Shown here piece after piece: positions 25,001 through 31,000 of a stretch of 64,000 bases of DNA. The first letter of the stretch is position 1. The number at the start of each line of letters is the position of its first letter. The DNA lies in assembly GCF_024256425.1 (NCBI RefSeq), contig NC_071110.1, positions 2,727,451 to 2,791,450 on the forward strand, read 5' to 3'. Source of the DNA: Clarias gariepinus. Lineage: Eukaryota. The position numbers were made by a program.

Positions 25001-28000
25001 CTTTTCTTGACCAAAGGAAAGTGTGGTTAAAGCGCATCTCTCGCATGGTCACTGGCTGTCTCATGCCTACGAATTTTTGCTCTTCTTTTGGAAGGAACCG
25101 GAGCACACAACCCATCACCACTCTCTCTGCCACTTTGAATGTTGTAAGTGACTCTGGCTGGGGCCACCTGACTGCATTCTGACTAACCCAGTTCAGTTGT
25201 TGTTCATACGCCTACTTGTAAAACTCAAGTGCAGTTTGCGTCTTGGACTACAGTGAGGCAAGATCTCAGCTTTGAGCATGTCATAATAATCCACATTGTC
25301 ATCCGGCAAAGAAAAATAGGAATACTGTGCCTCACCTGACAGCAGTGGAATGAGAATCTCCATTCATGGATTTTGTTGGAAAGTGCACAGATATGCTTTA
25401 ATGGCTTTATGAGGCGTTAATTTAGTGAGCAGGTGCTGTGCATCACAGCATGGATCAGGGAGGTGCACTTCTCGTACTGGCAGGTGTTGGAGACGAAAGA
25501 CCACTGCCGCTGTAGCCAGCAAATCTTTTGAGAGCTGCTCAAAGAGCACTTGCTGTTGAATGCTTGTTTCCAGCAAGTATTCCAAGTATTCATCAGGGAA
25601 CCATTGTGGGCCCATTTTCCGTTTCATGTGCCTGCATTGTCCATAAGTCTAATGGGTCTGACACATGGAAGGAACACACAGGAAACAGATTTACGTTTAC
25701 ATTTAGGCATTTGGCAGACACTCGCTTTACAAAAGTTTACAAAAGTTTCCATCTTTAGATAAATTCTTATACTGGATTACCAGGTTAATAAATAAATCAG
25801 TCAGATGTCAGATGTCATGAAAATGAACAATCATTTTATTAAGCACACATTACCACACAGTGTTAATGAAGTGGGTGGAAGCGAAGAGGCCCTTTTATGA
25901 GCATCCTCTGATTGTCCTCCAGCCCAGGTGAATTGGGGTATCACGTCCCTTTGTTAGGCACCCCTTTAAAGTGTTATGCTGTTGTCACGAACCTTCCTCT
26001 GATGTCTGCGTAAGTGTGGCATAATGTGCAGGAGGCGAGCTGGCGGTTTAGTAATATGCTTTTATTTAAGCACATAAAATAAACACAACATAGAACTTTA
26101 CCAAAGGATAATACTATAAGGGCAACAAAAGCCGTTACAGTACCCCCCCCCTAAAAAACGCTCCTCCGGAGCGTTACCGGAGGACCCGGACTCCCTCCCC
26201 AGCGGTCCCAGTCCGGACCTCCAACACCGAGGCGGTCGATCCCCTCTCGTGGGTTAGGTTTAAGAGCTGGGGCGACGCTCGGCGGCAGCTGAGGAGCTGG
26301 AGCGACGCTCGGCGGCGGCTGAGGAGCTGGAGCGACGCTCGGCGGCGGCTGAGGAGCTGGAGCGACGCTCGGCGGCGGCTGAGGAGCTGGAGCGACGCTC
26401 GGCGGCGGCTGAGGAGCTGGAGCGACGCTCGGCGGCGGCTGAGGACCTGGAGCGACGCTCGGCGGCGGCTGAGGAGCTGGAGCGACGCTCGGCGGCGGCT
26501 GAGGAGCTGGAGCGACGCTTGCTGTGCTGGGCGGCGGCGGAGCTGGAGCGACGCTCGCTGAGCTGGGCGGCGGCGGAGCTGGAGCGACGCTCGGCGGCGG
26601 CTGAGGAGCTGGAGCGACGCTCGGCGGCGGCTGAGGAGCTGGAGCGACACTCGCTGTGCTGGCCGGCGGCGGCGGAGCTGGAGCGACGCTCGCTGTGCTG
26701 GGCGGCGGCGGAGCTGGAGCGACGCTCGCTGAGCTGGGCGGCGGCGGAGCTGGAGCGACGCTCGCTGAGCTGGGCGGCGGCGGCGGCGGCGGAGCTGGAG
26801 CGACGCTCGCTGTGCTGGGCGGCGGCGGCGGCGGCGGAGCTGGAGCGACGCTCGCTGTGCTGGGCGGCGGCGGCGGCGGCGGCGGAGCTGGAGCGACGCT
26901 CGCTGTGCTGGGCGGCGGCGGCGGCGGCGGAGCTGGAGCGACGCTCGCTGTGCTGGGCGGCGGCGGCGGCGGCGGAGCTGGAGCGACGTCCTCAAAGCCC
27001 GATGGCGGAGGAAGCAGCAGGCCGGCCTGGAAGTCTGGCTGAGGAGCCGGAGCGTCGATCGCTGTCTCCATCGGCGGCTGCTGAGCTGGCGCGATGTCCT
27101 CAAAGCCGGGAGGCGGAGGAAGCAGCAGGCCGGCCTGGAAGTCTGGCTGAGGAGCCGGAGCGTCGATCGCTGTCTCCATCGGCGGCTGCTGAGCTGGCGC
27201 GATGTCCTCAAAGCCGGGAGGCGGAGGAAGCAGCAGGCCGTCCTCGCAGCCCGGCTGAAGCGCTGGCTCACTGTTCATGCAGCTTGGAGGCGGCAGATCG
27301 GCAGCGCCGCTCACGACGCTTGGCGGCTGTGGAGCGGGAGCGACGTTTCCCCTGTCTGGCAGAGGCGGCGGCTGAGGAGTAGACGTGTCTGGCAGCCGCG
27401 GCACGTAGACCTCCGCGTTGACTACAGTCGGGAGCGGGAGGAGGAGCGCGTCGTCCAGATTAGAGAGAGGGAGAGTGTCCGGAGCTACATCGCAGTTCTC
27501 TCGAACCTGGACGAGCAGCCTTTGGAGTAGCGCCACCTGCTCCCGCAGATCGGAAATGCGCTCTCTGTTCCGCTGTGCCAACAACGTGTAGTCCTCCTCC
27601 GTTAAGTCCTCGTTACCGTTCTGCCAGGCCTCCTCGGCCCGTGCCTCTTGGCTGGTGGTTGGGACCGTGTATCTCCCCTCTGCCTCACCCTTGAACGGCG
27701 TCCGCCGAATGGCGAGCCTGCAGCCTTCCGAGCTGCGCCGCGCTCTTCTCTCTCGCTGCTCTTCGCTGTCTTCCAGCCAGTCCGCCGGTTCGATCAGCCT
27801 GCAGCCTTCCCAGCTCTGCAAGAGCTCTCTCTCCCCTTGCTCCTCGCTGTCCTCCAGCCATTCCGCCAGCTCGGGCGAGATGGTGATAGCGCCCCCCCAA
27901 AAAACGTCTGGGGGAGCGACCTCCGCTATGCCACTACGACGGTCTAGCTTTCTGTCACGAACCTTCCTCTGATGTCTGCGTAAGTGTGGCATAATGTGCA

Positions 28001-31000
28001 GGAGGCGAGCTGGCGGTTTAGTAATATGCTTTTATTTAAGCACATAAAATAAACACAACATAGAACTTTACCAAAGGATAATACTATAAGGGCAACAAAA
28101 GCTAGACACCTGACTGTGCTCCAGTCAGGCTCTTTATAATCAACTTAATTACCTTACCTCGGTTCAGGTGAACTCCCACGTCACCTGACCGAGGTGCAGT
28201 CTGGGACATGCAGTCCAACTTAAACATAATACAAAAATAAAACAAACAAACCCAGGCGCTTTGGCGCCCTCTAGGGGTTAACCGTTACAGCTGTGGGCAT
28301 GATATGTATGTGCAAGAAGCCCCCCGCACTGGCTGTTAGTCCGCTGTCACAGTATGTAGCTCTTTGGTCCAGGGAAAATGGTGTTTTGTTTCACTGTGTA
28401 CTAAACTGTATATGGTTAAAATGACAATAAACACCTACTTGGTTCATTGATTTAATTGTTCATGCTTTCTTCTTATTTCTATTAAAATCCTATAAATTTT
28501 ATGGCTCTCTTTAATGTGCTGCAGAACAAATGTTTGCTTGTTTACCTTGTGGACGGATTTGCTTGACTTCTCTTTTCATCTCCGAGAGAGATTTCCGCAT
28601 TTCATCAAATGTGTGATGTAGATAGACAGTGTATATTGAGTCCTCACATCCAGGAGAAACACAGAGAGACGTGAAACTCTACAGAGAGGAAACACATCAT
28701 AGAGAAGGAGAAAAGTGTAGGAGAGGAACGAATGAATCTCAGACTGAATCAGACCAAAGACACACTTGTGATCTCAGACAGGAACATTTATTGTTGCTGT
28801 AATGAGCTTTTAGGAGGAAACTTTGTGAGGAACAGCGCCCTCTGTAGATCAGACAGTGAGTGTTACCTGGAGGAAGTGGATGTCATCGTGTGTGTGTGAA
28901 AGCTGCTCCAGCTCAGTGACTCTCCTCTTATAATCAGCAATCTCCTGCTCCAGTTGCTTCAGCAGTTGTTCAGCTCGACTCAGTTCAGCTTTCTCCTGAG
29001 CTCTGATCAGCTTCGTCACCTCCGAGCGCTTTTTCTCCATAAGGCTGATCAGCTCAGTAAAGATCCTCTCATTCTCATCTACTGCGGCCTGTGAACGCCT
29101 CTGTTAGGATACACAAACACATATATATTGTCACGGTAAACCGCACAATCATCATGAGTACTGCACAGCTCCGCTTCCCCAACGGACAAAGTTCAAGTTC
29201 ACGGTCACCGGCCTCATTCACTGTCTGATTTTTCTGCATGAGTGTATAAATAAAATTGCCTCGACCTTTGCTCACCACTACAATATGTTGTCCGCCTTTT
29301 CTCTCCCTGTGTCGCAGCCCGATGCTACATAGCTTTACAATATATATATATATAGCACCCTAAAGCTCACTACTATATATATATATATATACACTCTAAA
29401 CACCTAAATATATATACACAATATACACCTAAAGGATTATTAGGAACACCATACTAATACGGTGTTTGACCCCCTTTCCCTTCAGAACTGCCTTAATTCT
29501 ACGTGGCATTGATTCAACAAGGTGCTGAAAGCATTCTTTACAAATGTTGCGCCATATTGATAGGATAGATCTTGTAGTTGACGGAGATTTGTGGGATGCA
29601 CATCCAGGGCACGAAGCTCCCGTTCCACCACATCCCAAAGATGCTCTATTGGGTTGAGATCTGGTGACTGTGGGGCCCATTTTAGTACAGTGAACTCATT
29701 GTCATGTTCAAGAAACCAATTTAAAATGATTCGAGCTTTGTAACATGGTGCATTATCCTGCTGAAAGTAGCCATCAGAGGATGGTTACATGGTGTTCATA
29801 AAGGGATGGACATGGTCAGAAACAATGCTCAGGTAGCCCGTGGCATTTAAACCATGCCCAATTGGCACTAAGGGGCCTAAAGTGTGCCAAGAAAACATCC
29901 CCCACACCATTACACCACCACCACCAGCCTGCACAGTGGTAACAAGGCATGATGGATCCATGTTCTCATTCTGTTTACGTCAAATTCTGACTTTACCATT
30001 TAAATGTCTCAACAGAAATCGAGACTCATCAGACCAGGCAACATTTTTCCAGTCTTCAACTGTCCAATTTTGGTGAGCTCGTGCAAATTGTAGCCTCTTT
30101 TTCGGTTTTTGTAGTGAAGATGGGTGGTACCAGTCTTCTGCTGTTGTAGTCCATCCACCTCAGGGTTGTGCGTGTTGTGGCTTCACAAATGCTTTGTTAC
30201 AAACCTTGGTTGTAACGAATGGTTATTTCAGTCAAAGTTGCTCTTCTATCAGCTTGAATCAGTCGGCCCATTCTCCTCTGACCTTTGGTATCAACAAGGC
30301 ATTTTCACCCACAGGACTGCCGCATACTGGATGTTTTTTCCTTTTCACACCATTATTTGTAAACCATAAAAATGGTTGTGCATAAAAATCCCAGTAACTG
30401 AGCAGATTGTGAAATACTCAGACCGGCCCGTCTGGCACCAACAACCATGCCACGCTCGAAATTGCTTAAATCACCTTTCTTTCCCATTCTGACATTCAGT
30501 TTGGAGTTCAGGAGATTGTCTTGACCAGGACCACACCCCTAAATGCATTAAAGCAACTGCCATGTGATTGGTTGATTAGATAATTGCAATAATGAGAAAT
30601 TGAACAGGTGTTACTTATAATCCTTTAGGTGAGTGTATATACACAGTGGAACCTTGAATTGTAAGCACCATTAGTGTGCTTGTATATTAAAGCACTCATA
30701 TATCATAAGTAATGAAAACTCAGACAATTTGTTCCACAACCCAAAAATATTCACATAAAATAATTATTACAAAATGTAAAGTAAAAATAAAACAAATTAA
30801 CCTGCAATTTACCATATAAATAATGATGGCTGTAATAATTGAGAGAGGGGCACCAGTTTACCGATAGAGACTCTCACTCACACAGGCCCACGCGCGATAT
30901 ACACATGCAAACACACAAAAAAAAATGCTTTACGTGCACATACGTGGCCACAGTGTCATAGTAAACAGTATATTTGCCTATATGTGTGACACACACGCAC

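What the first reader, a model, noticed from the sequence alone, without database searches (positions are those of the whole stretch)
25984..28289. A 2.3-kb LTR-flanked unit encoding only a coiled-coil plus proline-rich protein with expanded 10-aa repeats (possible gag-only non-autonomous retroelement)
Short TG…CA direct repeats (one copy expanded by 178 bp), a perfect polypurine tract (AGGGGGGGGGG) abutting the 3' LTR, and an ORF that initiates within the 5' LTR all match LTR-retroelement structure. The single ORF has a leucine-zipper-like N-terminus followed by about 20 copies of PAPQPPPSVA (a 30-bp minisatellite) and 38-aa repeats. It parallels the CCHC-less gag of Gypsy element 2. The unit may be a solo-gag parasite (LARD/TRIM-like) of that family, or a captured host proline-rich gene.
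Basis: partly seen in the sequence, partly recalled or inferred. Interest (0 to 1): 0.55.

Follow-up and report, generated by a model that had tools for sequence, protein, structure and literature searches.

The report
Small self-priming LTR retrotransposon, orphan ORF
This is a real, recently inserted 2.3-kb non-autonomous LTR retrotransposon in catfish-like fish DNA that appears to prime its own reverse transcription, as Tf1/Sushi-type Gypsy elements do, and carries one coiled-coil plus proline-rich ORF with no detectable similarity to Gag; it is a tidy but fairly ordinary mobile element.

Summary
Window 25983-28289 (minus strand) is an LTR retroelement with TG...CA LTRs, a 5-bp target-site duplication (ACAGC), a G-run polypurine tract, and TATA and AATAAA signals. 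One 613-aa ORF runs from U5 of the 5' LTR to the polypurine tract.

Corrections:
- The 180-bp LTR length difference is a U3 deletion in the 3' LTR, not an expansion. A Clarias gariepinus relative has the long form.
- The proline array has 20 units, of which 10 are 10-aa.
- The larger repeat is 36 aa, not 38.

New finding: there is no tRNA-type primer-binding site. Instead, 10 nt at the predicted transcription start are the exact complement of nt +2..+11 after the 5' LTR. The two Gypsy elements in the window show the same layout with different sequences. This is the Tf1/Sushi self-priming design.

The ORF has no Pfam hit and no similarity to the neighbouring Gags. Among 1.84 billion protein representatives it has two relatives, both element copies in C. 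gariepinus. It is mostly disordered apart from one long helix, and dN/dS is about 0.63.

Verdict: a non-autonomous, Sushi-type-dependent LTR element with an orphan ORF in the gag position. "Gag-only" is unproven and host-gene capture is unsupported. Interest is modest.

The parts
25978..25982 (-). Target-site duplication, 3' side of the element (GCTGT on the + strand, ACAGC on the element strand)
   Evidence: Read. Identical to 28290-28294.
25983..26139 (-). 3' LTR, 157 bp. It keeps only the first 7-8 nt of U3 (TGTAACG), then R from about nt 6, then U5. It lacks the promoter.
   Evidence: 150/150 identity to 27953-28102 plus a shared terminal CGTTACA. The deletion is inferred from the full-length LTR in L001.
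26140..26152 (-). Polypurine tract AGGGGGGGGG followed by TAC, next to the 3' LTR. The ORF stop codon TAG (26153-26151) overlaps it.
   Evidence: The same GGGGGG(G)TAC|TGT junction occurs in Gypsy 1 and Gypsy 2.
26157..26175 (-). 8-bp hairpin (AACGCTCC-GGA-GGAGCGTT), followed by a T run just upstream of the polypurine tract
   Evidence: Read. Function unknown. Any resemblance to the U-rich box upstream of retroviral polypurine tracts rests on my own knowledge.
26151..27992 (-). Single ORF of 613 aa. It fills the whole space from U5 of the 5' LTR to the polypurine tract. In order: basic N-terminus, two 27-aa acidic repeats, a long helix, then a 40% proline repeat region.
   Evidence: Homologues P0001 (47% identity, same start codon) and P0002 (58%). 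No Pfam hit. dN/dS 0.63.
26264..26988 (-). Coding minisatellites with 30-bp and 36-48-bp units, giving 20 APAP...SV peptide units. GC content is 76% over the whole repeat region 26264-27258, which also takes in the 108-bp repeats.
26964..27258 (-). 108-bp (36-aa) repeats x 2.7, carrying GLLLPPPPGFEDIAPAQQPPMETAIDAPAPQPDFQA
27495..27599 (-). Predicted long helix or coiled coil (aa 132-166, ...ISDLREQVALLQRLLVQVREN)
   Evidence: AlphaFold helix 132-166, block pLDDT 65-79. Conserved in P0001 and P0002.
27715..27867 (-). 81-bp (27-aa) acidic repeat x 1.9 (WLEDSEEQ...EGCRL). Present once in P0002 and twice in P0001.
27942..27951 (-). Self-primer-binding site AAAGCTAGAC, at +2..+11 after the 5' LTR and inside the ORF
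   Evidence: Exact complement of LTR nt 183-192. Shuffle control 7/2000. Paired with the 5' end in the minimum-free-energy fold of the leader.
27927..27934 (-). Second leader duplex, downstream arm GTGGCATA (+19..+26)
   Evidence: Complement of U5 TATGCCAC at 27986-27993, which contains the ATG. The same two-duplex layout is found in the L001 copy, Gypsy 1 and Gypsy 2.
27953..28289 (-). 5' LTR, 337 bp, full U3-R-U5 (TGTAACGG...GTTCGTGACA)
   Evidence: 81% identical over its full length to L001:9712-10040.
28031..28036 (-). AATAAA polyadenylation signal in the LTR (LTR nt 254-259)
   Evidence: Read. Conserved in the L001 copy.
28098..28107 (-). Self-primer GTCTAGCTTT at the predicted transcription start (LTR nt 183-192)
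   Evidence: It starts 31 nt after the first T of the TATA box. The equivalent spacing is 29-30 nt in Gypsy 1 and Gypsy 2.
28132..28138 (-). TATAAAG box in U3
   Evidence: TATAAAT at the same place in the L001 copy.
28103..28282 (-). 180-bp stretch of U3 (including the TATA box and the first 5-6 nt of the self-primer) that is missing from the 3' LTR
28290..28294 (-). Target-site duplication, 5' side of the element (GCTGT on the + strand)

Best explanation
Window 25983-28289 (minus strand) is one young copy of a catfish-lineage family of non-autonomous LTR retrotransposons. The family belongs, by its cis-acting design, with the self-priming Tf1/Sushi-type Ty3/Gypsy elements.

Proposed mechanism:
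1. The U3 TATA box drives transcription, starting at about LTR nt 183.
2. The first 10-11 nt of the RNA (GUCUAGCUUU[U]) fold back onto the complementary site one nucleotide after U5. A second duplex forms between U5 and the leader.
3. RNase H and reverse transcriptase supplied in trans by an autonomous Sushi-like Gypsy element cut the folded end and extend it as the minus-strand primer.
4. The approximately 90-nt R region mediates strand transfer.
5. The AGGGGGGGGG-TAC tract primes the plus strand.
6. The helper integrase inserts the cDNA with a 5-bp duplication.

What is shown and what is inferred:
- Shown from sequence: LTRs, target-site duplication, polypurine tract, TATA and AATAAA signals, the primer complementarity and its recurrence in the neighbouring elements, and dispersed family members.
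- Inferred: the actual transcription start, the cleavage and priming steps, and the identity of the helper.

The ORF: the single ORF sits where gag would be. It encodes a mostly disordered protein with a basic N-terminus, acidic repeats, one long helix and an expanded polyproline array. It is most likely either a highly diverged or remodelled N-terminal Gag module (coiled coil plus proline linker, with capsid and nucleocapsid lost) or a lineage-specific novelty under weak constraint.

This copy is a dead end: its 3' LTR has lost nearly all of U3, and the U3 of progeny is copied from the 3' LTR. Any daughter copies would therefore lack a promoter and half of the self-primer.
For: Structure:
- LTR pair 150/150 identical plus shared termini.
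- 5-bp target-site duplication and polypurine tract.

Self-priming:
- 10-nt exact complementarity between LTR nt 183-192 and +2..+11 after the LTR, 31 nt downstream of TATAAAG.
- Second duplex TATGCCAC/GTGGCATA.
- The same two-part layout, with different sequences, occurs in Gypsy 2 (GCTCAGTCATT/AATGACTGAGC) and Gypsy 1 (GCTGGATTATT/AATAATCCAGC). It occurs unchanged in the C. gariepinus copy.
- Shuffles reach the observed length in only 2-7 of 2000 trials.
- Minimum-free-energy folds pair the 5' end with this site in the window copy, Gypsy 1 and Gypsy 2.
- No TGG lies within 19 nt of the LTR end.

Shared cis motifs: polypurine-tract/U3 junction GGGGGG(G)TAC|TGT, U5 end TGACA|G, and a 5-bp duplication in all three elements.

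Helper-type elements:
- Gypsy 1 and Gypsy 2 encode PR-RT-RNaseH-IN with the Tf2-type SH3 domain. Gypsy 2 also has a chromodomain.
- Gypsy 2 relatives are annotated as Tf2 polyproteins.

Literature: self-priming is the known hallmark of Tf1/Sushi elements from fungi to vertebrates (PMC4600332, PMC6317226). Published Sushi and rGmr1 LTR end motifs are TGTYANR/CNTNACA and TGTNANR/CGTNACA (PMC3601003). Here the ends are TGTAACG/CGTGACA.

Mobile family: the P0001 locus has an LTR plus ORF at 81% nucleotide identity, next to unrelated genes. P0002 is a third copy, fused to an MS4A gene model.

ORF maintained:
- The same ATG in U5 and an open frame of at least 351 codons in L001.
- In-frame indels of 13, 3 and 1 codons.
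- dN/dS 0.63, bootstrap interval 0.43-0.96.
Against: - No autonomous partner with matching LTRs or ORF was found. The N-terminal profile hit nothing else among 1.84 billion representatives. BLASTN of the element against the window found no other copy or related LTR.
- Self-priming is inferred only from sequence. The transcription start is predicted, not mapped.
- In the C. gariepinus copy both arms are unchanged, so there is no covariation within the family. Its minimum-free-energy fold chose another pairing.
- The 5' LTR end motif fits the published Sushi consensus at only 6 of 7 positions.
- dN/dS of 0.63 is weak evidence for protein function. Part of the synonymous constraint could come from the overlapping leader RNA structure.
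- Only three copies are known and only two could be examined as DNA. One of those, the L001 copy, is truncated and has no 3' LTR.
Confidence: 0.7

Rival explanations
1. True 'gag-only' element (an animal counterpart of plant TR-GAG). On this reading the ORF is a functional but highly diverged Gag that assembles, or co-assembles with helper Gag, and packages the element's own RNA.
For: - The ORF occupies the gag position and overlaps the primer-binding site, as the Gags of Gypsy 1 and Gypsy 2 do.
- Sushi-like Gags here start with a coiled coil followed by a proline-rich linker. Gypsy 1 has MDPAGLDR...coiled coil...LPAPPTYGGEP. Gypsy 2 ORF1 aligns to the N-terminal coiled coil of the full-length gag-pol P0007 at E 9e-6.
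- The ORF has a basic N-terminus that could bind RNA.
- The frame is kept open across copies.
Against: - No Pfam gag, capsid or zinc-knuckle hit even at E <= 1.
- No BLASTP similarity to the Gypsy 1 Gag, the Gypsy 2 Gag or P0007.
- No globular fold predicted that could serve as a capsid.
- No CCHC motif.
- After the helix, the protein is low-complexity proline repeats through to the C-terminal tail.
Confidence: 0.2
2. Non-coding, LARD/TRIM-like element. On this reading the ORF is a by-product of GC-rich triplet-phased minisatellites and has no function.
For: - Other frames and the opposite strand are also open for 287-365 codons across the repeat region.
- All repeat periods are multiples of 3, so the frame is kept automatically.
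- dN/dS is only moderately below 1.
- The protein is predicted to be mostly disordered.
Against: - The non-repetitive N-terminal 190 codons are open in three diverged copies. The start codon is conserved and every indel is in frame.
- The bootstrap interval for dN/dS excludes 1.
- The ORF spans exactly from U5 to the polypurine tract.
Confidence: 0.15
3. A host proline-rich gene (for example a formin-FH1-like gene) captured between LTRs.
For: - UniRef labels P0001 'protein diaphanous homolog'.
- [FL]PPPP motifs occur in the ORF.
Against: - The label reflects polyproline composition only.
- No host homologue was found for the N-terminal profile among 1.84 billion representatives, nor for the proline-rich segment.
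- The ORF starts inside U5 and overlaps the primer-binding site in both DNA copies read (window and L001; P0002 does not cover this part). This is not expected for a transduced cDNA.
Confidence: 0.05
4. Not a transposon: a local tandem duplication, or an assembly artefact, produced the two repeats.
For: - The two LTRs differ by a 180-bp indel, which could hint at mis-assembly.
- The window does contain a genuine 1186-bp tandem duplication elsewhere.
Against: - A 5-bp target-site duplication and TG...CA termini.
- The polypurine tract, primer-binding-site complementarity and TATA/AATAAA signals are all in the positions expected of an LTR element.
- Homologous LTR-plus-ORF copies lie at unrelated loci in another assembly.
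Confidence: 0.02

Closest known systems
[quoted passage not shown]
   Same: - The primer-binding site is complementary to the 5' end of the element's own transcript rather than to a tRNA. A second U5/leader duplex is also present.
- TG...CA LTRs whose ends fit the published Sushi and rGmr1 motifs.
- G-run polypurine tract and 5-bp target-site duplication.
- AATAAA lies late in the LTR.
   Different: - No pol (PR, RT, RNase H, IN) and no recognisable Gag.
- Only 2.3 kb long.
- The ORF starts inside U5.
- Membership by pol phylogeny cannot be tested.
TR-GAG elements of plants (Chaparro et al. 2015, PMC4350172)
   Same: - Short (<4 kb) non-autonomous LTR retrotransposon with LTRs, a primer-binding site, a polypurine tract and a single ORF in the gag position.
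- Presumably mobilised in trans.
   Different: - TR-GAG ORFs are recognisably Gag, with similarity to Copia or Gypsy Gag. This ORF is not.
- The host is a vertebrate.
- The primer-binding site is of the self-priming type.
LARD / TRIM non-autonomous LTR elements (including animal TRIMs, e.g. PbTRIM, PMC3532108)
   Same: LTR-flanked, lacks pol, and depends on a helper.
   Different: - TRIM and LARD internal regions are non-coding, whereas here a conserved ORF fills the whole internal region.
- The size falls between the two classes.
Gag-deleted Gypsy 2 in the same window (42989-47456)
   Same: - Its ORF1 is a coiled coil followed by prolines with no capsid domain.
- It has the same U5 terminus GTTCGTGACA|G, the same polypurine-tract junction and the same size of target-site duplication.
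- It uses the self-priming layout.
   Different: - Gypsy 2 keeps pol and a (frameshifted) CCHC knuckle.
- There is no sequence similarity between the two ORF1 proteins or the LTR bodies.

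Membership tests
LTR retrotransposon (order LTR, class I) | Two direct long terminal repeats ending TG...CA | tested here: met
   150/150 identical core plus shared termini. TGTAACGG...GTGACA.
LTR retrotransposon (order LTR, class I) | 4-6-bp target-site duplication | tested here: met
   ACAGC on both sides.
LTR retrotransposon (order LTR, class I) | Polypurine tract next to the 3' LTR and a primer-binding site next to the 5' LTR | tested here: met
   AGGGGGGGGG-TAC next to the 3' LTR. 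A 10-nt self-complementary primer-binding site at +2..+11 after the 5' LTR.
LTR retrotransposon (order LTR, class I) | Dispersed copies at unrelated loci | tested here: met
   L001 (C. gariepinus CM044210.1, beside BTB/WD40 and nuclear-receptor genes) and the P0002 MS4A locus. Copy number in the source genome could not be measured.
Tf1/Sushi group (self-priming Ty3/Gypsy) | Primer-binding site complementary to the first ~11 nt of the element's own mRNA | tested here: met
   In silico only. GTCTAGCTTT lies 31 nt after the TATA box and is complementary to AAAGCTAGAC at +2..+11. Shuffle control 7/2000. The same layout occurs in Gypsy 1 and Gypsy 2. The transcription start has not been mapped.
Tf1/Sushi group (self-priming Ty3/Gypsy) | LTR end motifs (Sushi TGTYANR / CNTNACA; PMC3601003 Table 3) | tested here: inconclusive
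   The 3' end CGTGACA fits 7/7. The 5' end TGTAACG fits 6/7 for Sushi and 7/7 for the rGmr1 motif TGTNANR.
Tf1/Sushi group (self-priming Ty3/Gypsy) | RT/IN phylogeny within the chromovirus Tf1/Sushi clade | not testable with these tools
   The element has no pol.
TR-GAG | Under 4 kb, with LTRs, a primer-binding site, a polypurine tract and a single ORF | tested here: met
   2307 bp and one ORF.
TR-GAG | The ORF is recognisably GAG (capsid and/or zinc-knuckle similarity) | tested here: not met
   No Pfam hit at E <= 1. No BLASTP similarity to Gags. No globular domain in the AlphaFold model.
TRIM / LARD | Internal region without coding capacity | tested here: not met
   A 613-aa ORF whose N-terminal 190 codons are open and conserved in three copies.
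Endogenous retrovirus (internally deleted) | tRNA-complementary primer-binding site (TGG...) immediately after U5 | tested here: not met
   No TGG within 19 nt after the LTR. Host tRNAs were not available; ARAGORN found none in the window.

The most novel reading that the evidence does not exclude
A vertebrate family of self-priming, non-autonomous LTR retrotransposons that keeps a non-Gag accessory protein. The protein would be a coiled-coil adaptor with an expanding polyproline array. It carries acid-flanked [F/L]PPPP motifs of the kind bound by Ena/VASP EVH1, profilin, SH3 or WW domains (motif assignment from my own knowledge, untested). It would be used either to hitch onto the helper's particles or to engage the host cytoskeleton or trafficking. 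This would be a new 'parasite of a parasite' strategy, or a de novo protein gene born on and carried by a retroelement.
Probability: 0.12. Interest if true: 0.6.

Novelty: new variant of a known kind. Interest (0 to 1): 0.33.

Why it matters
Non-autonomous LTR elements that carry a single ORF are described mainly in plants (TR-GAG). A vertebrate family with the self-priming Tf1/Sushi design and an orphan, non-Gag-like ORF would add a variant to the list of ways LTR elements parasitise each other. It would also give a compact natural template (2.3 kb, with clear primer and primer-binding-site pairs in three co-resident families) for testing self-priming specificity in vertebrate elements.

There is a practical point too. 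Copies of this family contaminate gene models: P0002 is an MS4A protein model with an element-derived tail, and P0001 is labelled 'diaphanous homolog'. Otherwise this is a normal component of a transposon-rich fish genome.

Tried and rejected
- Pfam scan of the ORF: no hits at E <= 1.
- Exhaustive HMMER profile search of the N-terminal domain against 1.84 billion representatives: only the two Clarias proteins already found.
- Word-indexed search with the proline-rich segment: nothing.
- AlphaFold on a 3-sequence alignment: pLDDT 48. A fold search would have been meaningless and was not run.
- BLASTP against the Gypsy 1 Gag, Gypsy 2 ORF1 and a full-length cyprinid gag-pol: no similarity.
- BLASTN and TBLASTN of the element against the rest of the window: no other copy and no related LTR.
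- Exact-protein look-ups for the window ORF and for P0002: not on record.
- Two metagenome scans for the conserved primer-binding-site block: no matches.
- ARAGORN on the window: no tRNA genes to compare with the primer-binding site.
- Rfam: only a sub-threshold snoU13 hit, 24 bits against a gathering score of 46, treated as chance.
- Species identification through the Gypsy 2 pol: the best hits were only 76% identical (cyprinids), so the source species stays unresolved. The element ORF's only relatives are in Clarias.
- tRNA primer-binding site: considered and rejected because there is no TGG near the LTR.
- A reverse-transcription origin for the 3' LTR deletion: considered and rejected. Both LTRs copy the same U3 template, so a post-integration deletion with 1-nt microhomology (G) is simpler. 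This is inference.

Full report
**What is there**

The window is transposon-rich fish DNA with 43% GC. It holds two intact-looking Ty3/Gypsy elements, LINE fragments and other repeats.

The flagged unit spans 25983-28289 and reads 5'->3' on the minus strand. Two direct repeats, 25983-26132 and 27953-28102, are 150/150 identical (family D14). Both end in the same CGTTACA. On the element strand the LTRs read TGTAACGG...GTTCGTGACA.

Immediately outside them the pentamer ACAGC is duplicated (GCTGT on the + strand), at 28290-28294 and 25978-25982.

**The LTRs**

The 5' LTR (28289..27953) is 337 bp and has the following features:
- a TATAAAG box at LTR nt 152-158;
- an AATAAA signal at nt 254-259;
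- the ORF's ATG at nt 298.

The 3' LTR (26139..25983) is only 157 bp. It keeps TGTAACG and then resumes at GCTTTTG, so 180 bp (28103-28282) are missing.

The related copy in Clarias gariepinus (L001:9712-10040) aligns to the whole 337-bp form at 81% identity, TATA box included. The long form is therefore ancestral and the 3' LTR carries a deletion.

The deletion removes almost all of U3 and the first 5-6 nt of R. In LTR-element replication the U3 of both progeny LTRs is copied from the 3' LTR (established mechanism). This copy could therefore still be transcribed, but its progeny would lack a promoter. I infer that the deletion happened after integration, because both LTRs of a new insertion derive from one U3 template. 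An assembly error is not excluded.

There are no differences in the 157 shared bases, so the insertion is young.

**Priming sites**

Upstream of the 3' LTR lies TTTTTT-AGGGGGGGGG-TAC|TGTAACGG. This is A plus nine G followed by TAC, so the tract does not strictly abut the LTR.

The same junction, GGGGGG(G)TAC|TGT, is found in Gypsy 2 (42989-47456, minus strand) and Gypsy 1 (18416-24067, plus strand). Each of those has its own 5-bp target-site duplication: GTGAT for Gypsy 2 and ACTTC for Gypsy 1.

Downstream of the 5' LTR there is no TGG for 19 nt, so a tRNA-type primer-binding site is unlikely. Instead, nt +2..+11 (AAAGCTAGAC) are the exact complement of LTR nt 183-192 (GTCTAGCTTT). That segment begins 31 nt after the first T of the TATA box, which is the expected transcription start. 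A second duplex joins U5 TATGCCAC, which contains the ATG, to GTGGCATA at +19..+26.

The other elements show the same two-part layout:

| Element | Primer / primer-binding site | Second duplex | TATA-like box to primer |
|---|---|---|---|
| Window element | GTCTAGCTTT / AAAGCTAGAC | TATGCCAC / GTGGCATA | 31 nt |
| C. gariepinus copy (L001) | unchanged | unchanged | 31 nt (TATAAAT box; counted) |
| Gypsy 2 | GCTCAGTCATT / AATGACTGAGC | TGGGTTTACC / GGTAAACCCA | 30 nt |
| Gypsy 1 | GCTGGATTATT / AATAATCCAGC | CTGGATCCAT / ATGGATCCAG | 29 nt |

Shuffled LTRs reach the observed match length in only 2-7 of 2000 trials per element. Minimum-free-energy folds of the predicted leaders pair the 5' end with this site in the window copy, Gypsy 1 and Gypsy 2, but not in the L001 copy.

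This is the self-priming design first shown for Tf1. It is regarded as typical of the Tf1/Sushi group from fungi to vertebrates (PMC4600332; PMC6317226, citing Levin 1995, Lin and Levin 1997/1998 and Butler et al. 2001). Three different primer and primer-binding-site pairs occur in three co-resident families. That amounts to between-family covariation and is the strongest argument that the complementarity is functional.

Published LTR end motifs are Sushi TGTYANR/CNTNACA and rGmr1 TGTNANR/CGTNACA (PMC3601003). The ends here, TGTAACG/CGTGACA, fit at 6-7 of 7 and 7 of 7 positions.

**The ORF**

The ORF 27992..26151 (613 aa) begins in U5, overlaps the primer-binding site, and ends with a TAG fused to the polypurine tract. 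It therefore fills the entire internal region. Its parts, in order:
- a basic N-terminus;
- two 27-aa acidic repeats (81-bp period);
- a long helix at aa 132-166, the only part AlphaFold models with moderate confidence (overall pLDDT 48);
- three 36-aa repeats carrying LLLPPPPGFED;
- 20 APAP...SV units, ten of 10 aa and ten of 12-16 aa, encoded by 30-48-bp minisatellites in a repeat region of 76% GC.

Proline makes up 40% of aa 186-575.

Search results for the ORF:
- Pfam finds nothing at E <= 1.
- A word-indexed search of 5.8 billion proteins found only two relatives, both from C. gariepinus. An exhaustive profile search of 1.84 billion representatives found the same two and nothing else.
- P0001 is 47% identical, with the same ATG in U5. 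Its locus has the LTR but is truncated and has no 3' LTR.
- P0002 is an MS4A gene model whose last 137 residues come from another copy of the element.
- The proline-rich part has no hits.
- BLASTP finds no similarity to the Gypsy 1 Gag, Gypsy 2 ORF1 or a full-length Sushi-like gag-pol.

Between the window copy and L001, the first 184 aligned codons give dN/dS 0.63 (bootstrap interval 0.43-0.96). All indels are in frame. This suggests weak purifying selection at best, and the overlapping leader RNA structure complicates the reading.

**Is it Gag?**

By position and rough architecture, perhaps. Sushi-like Gags here begin with a coiled coil and a proline-rich linker before the capsid domain:
- The Gypsy 1 Gag follows that order.
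- Gypsy 2 ORF1 aligns to the N-terminal coiled coil of the full-length relative P0007 at E 9e-6.
- Those full-length relatives carry Retrotrans_gag, DUF4939 and Ty3_capsid domains.

By any homology or fold criterion, it is not Gag. I therefore do not file it as TR-GAG, whose defining feature is a recognisable Gag ORF (PMC4350172). I do not file it as TRIM or LARD either, because those have non-coding interiors.

Gypsy 2 is itself a capsid-deleted derivative.

**Helper**

No autonomous element sharing the LTR body or the ORF was found. The element shares generic cis motifs with both Gypsy 1 and Gypsy 2. Its last 10 nt of U5 (GTTCGTGACA) match Gypsy 2 exactly, while its U3 start is closer to Gypsy 1 at 7 of 10 positions. 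A Sushi-type helper is likely, but which family supplies it is open.

**Verdict**

This is a genuine, young, non-autonomous LTR retrotransposon of a Clarias-lineage family. It has Tf1/Sushi-type self-priming architecture and an orphan coiled-coil/polyproline ORF in the gag position.

It is a new variant of a known kind and of modest interest. The interesting residue is the nature of the ORF. It could be a diverged Gag N-terminal module, a novel accessory protein carrying [F/L]PPPP motifs, or nothing functional. The set of three parallel self-primer and primer-binding-site pairs in one window is also worth noting.

Noticed in passing
window 42989-47456 (minus strand): Gypsy 2 is a young chromovirus: its 376-bp LTRs differ at one position and its target-site duplication is GTGAT. 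It is nevertheless gag-defective. ORF1 is only an 86-aa coiled coil plus PPPP. The capsid domain found in full-length relatives is missing. A CX2CX4HX4C knuckle ([14 protein letters not shown]) and pol lie in two other frames.
   Followed up: partly
window 18416-24067 (plus strand): Gypsy 1 is a complete Sushi-like element. It has 700-bp LTRs with 4 mismatches and the target-site duplication ACTTC. Its Gag runs coiled coil, PPTY motif, capsid, CCHC. It uses the same self-priming layout (GCTGGATTATT / AATAATCCAGC).
   Followed up: partly
window 52394-54766: A 1186-bp unit is tandemly duplicated with one mismatch over the duplicated 1186 bp. It looks like a recent local duplication rather than an LTR pair.
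   Followed up: partly
window 58334-64000 (minus strand), with 59144-61828 (plus strand) inside: A third, older Gypsy 2-like copy (77-93% identity). It appears to be interrupted by a LINE that encodes a GDSL-esterase-type ORF1 and an endonuclease ORF2.
   Followed up: no
P0002 (C. gariepinus protein model) aa 190-326: A protein annotated as 'high affinity IgE receptor subunit beta-like' (MS4A, PF04103) ends in 137 residues derived from a copy of this element's ORF. This is probably a chimeric gene model caused by a transposon insertion. P0001 is likewise labelled 'diaphanous homolog' only because of its polyproline content.
   Followed up: partly
window ORF aa 255-266 and 291-302 (about 27230-27090); P0001 aa 200-300: Acid-flanked [F/L]PPPP motifs recur in both copies (LLLPPPPGFED in the window ORF; EDAFPPPPPP and DDAFPPPPQ in P0001). 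From my own knowledge they resemble Ena/VASP EVH1 ligand motifs. This is untested.
   Followed up: no
window 26157-26175 (minus strand): A perfect 8-bp hairpin followed by T6 sits directly upstream of the polypurine tract, inside the end of the ORF. Its function is unknown.
   Followed up: no
window 1-431 vs 28690-29121; 2497-3359 vs 37148-38033: Dispersed repeats of 83-95% identity lie shortly to the right of the element and at the window start. They indicate other repeat families or a segmental duplication around the insertion site.
   Followed up: no
window 12271-13161 (minus strand): A 296-aa ORF matches the Pfam family rva_4 (integrase core domain; E 4e-22). It probably belongs to another type of mobile element.
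   Followed up: no
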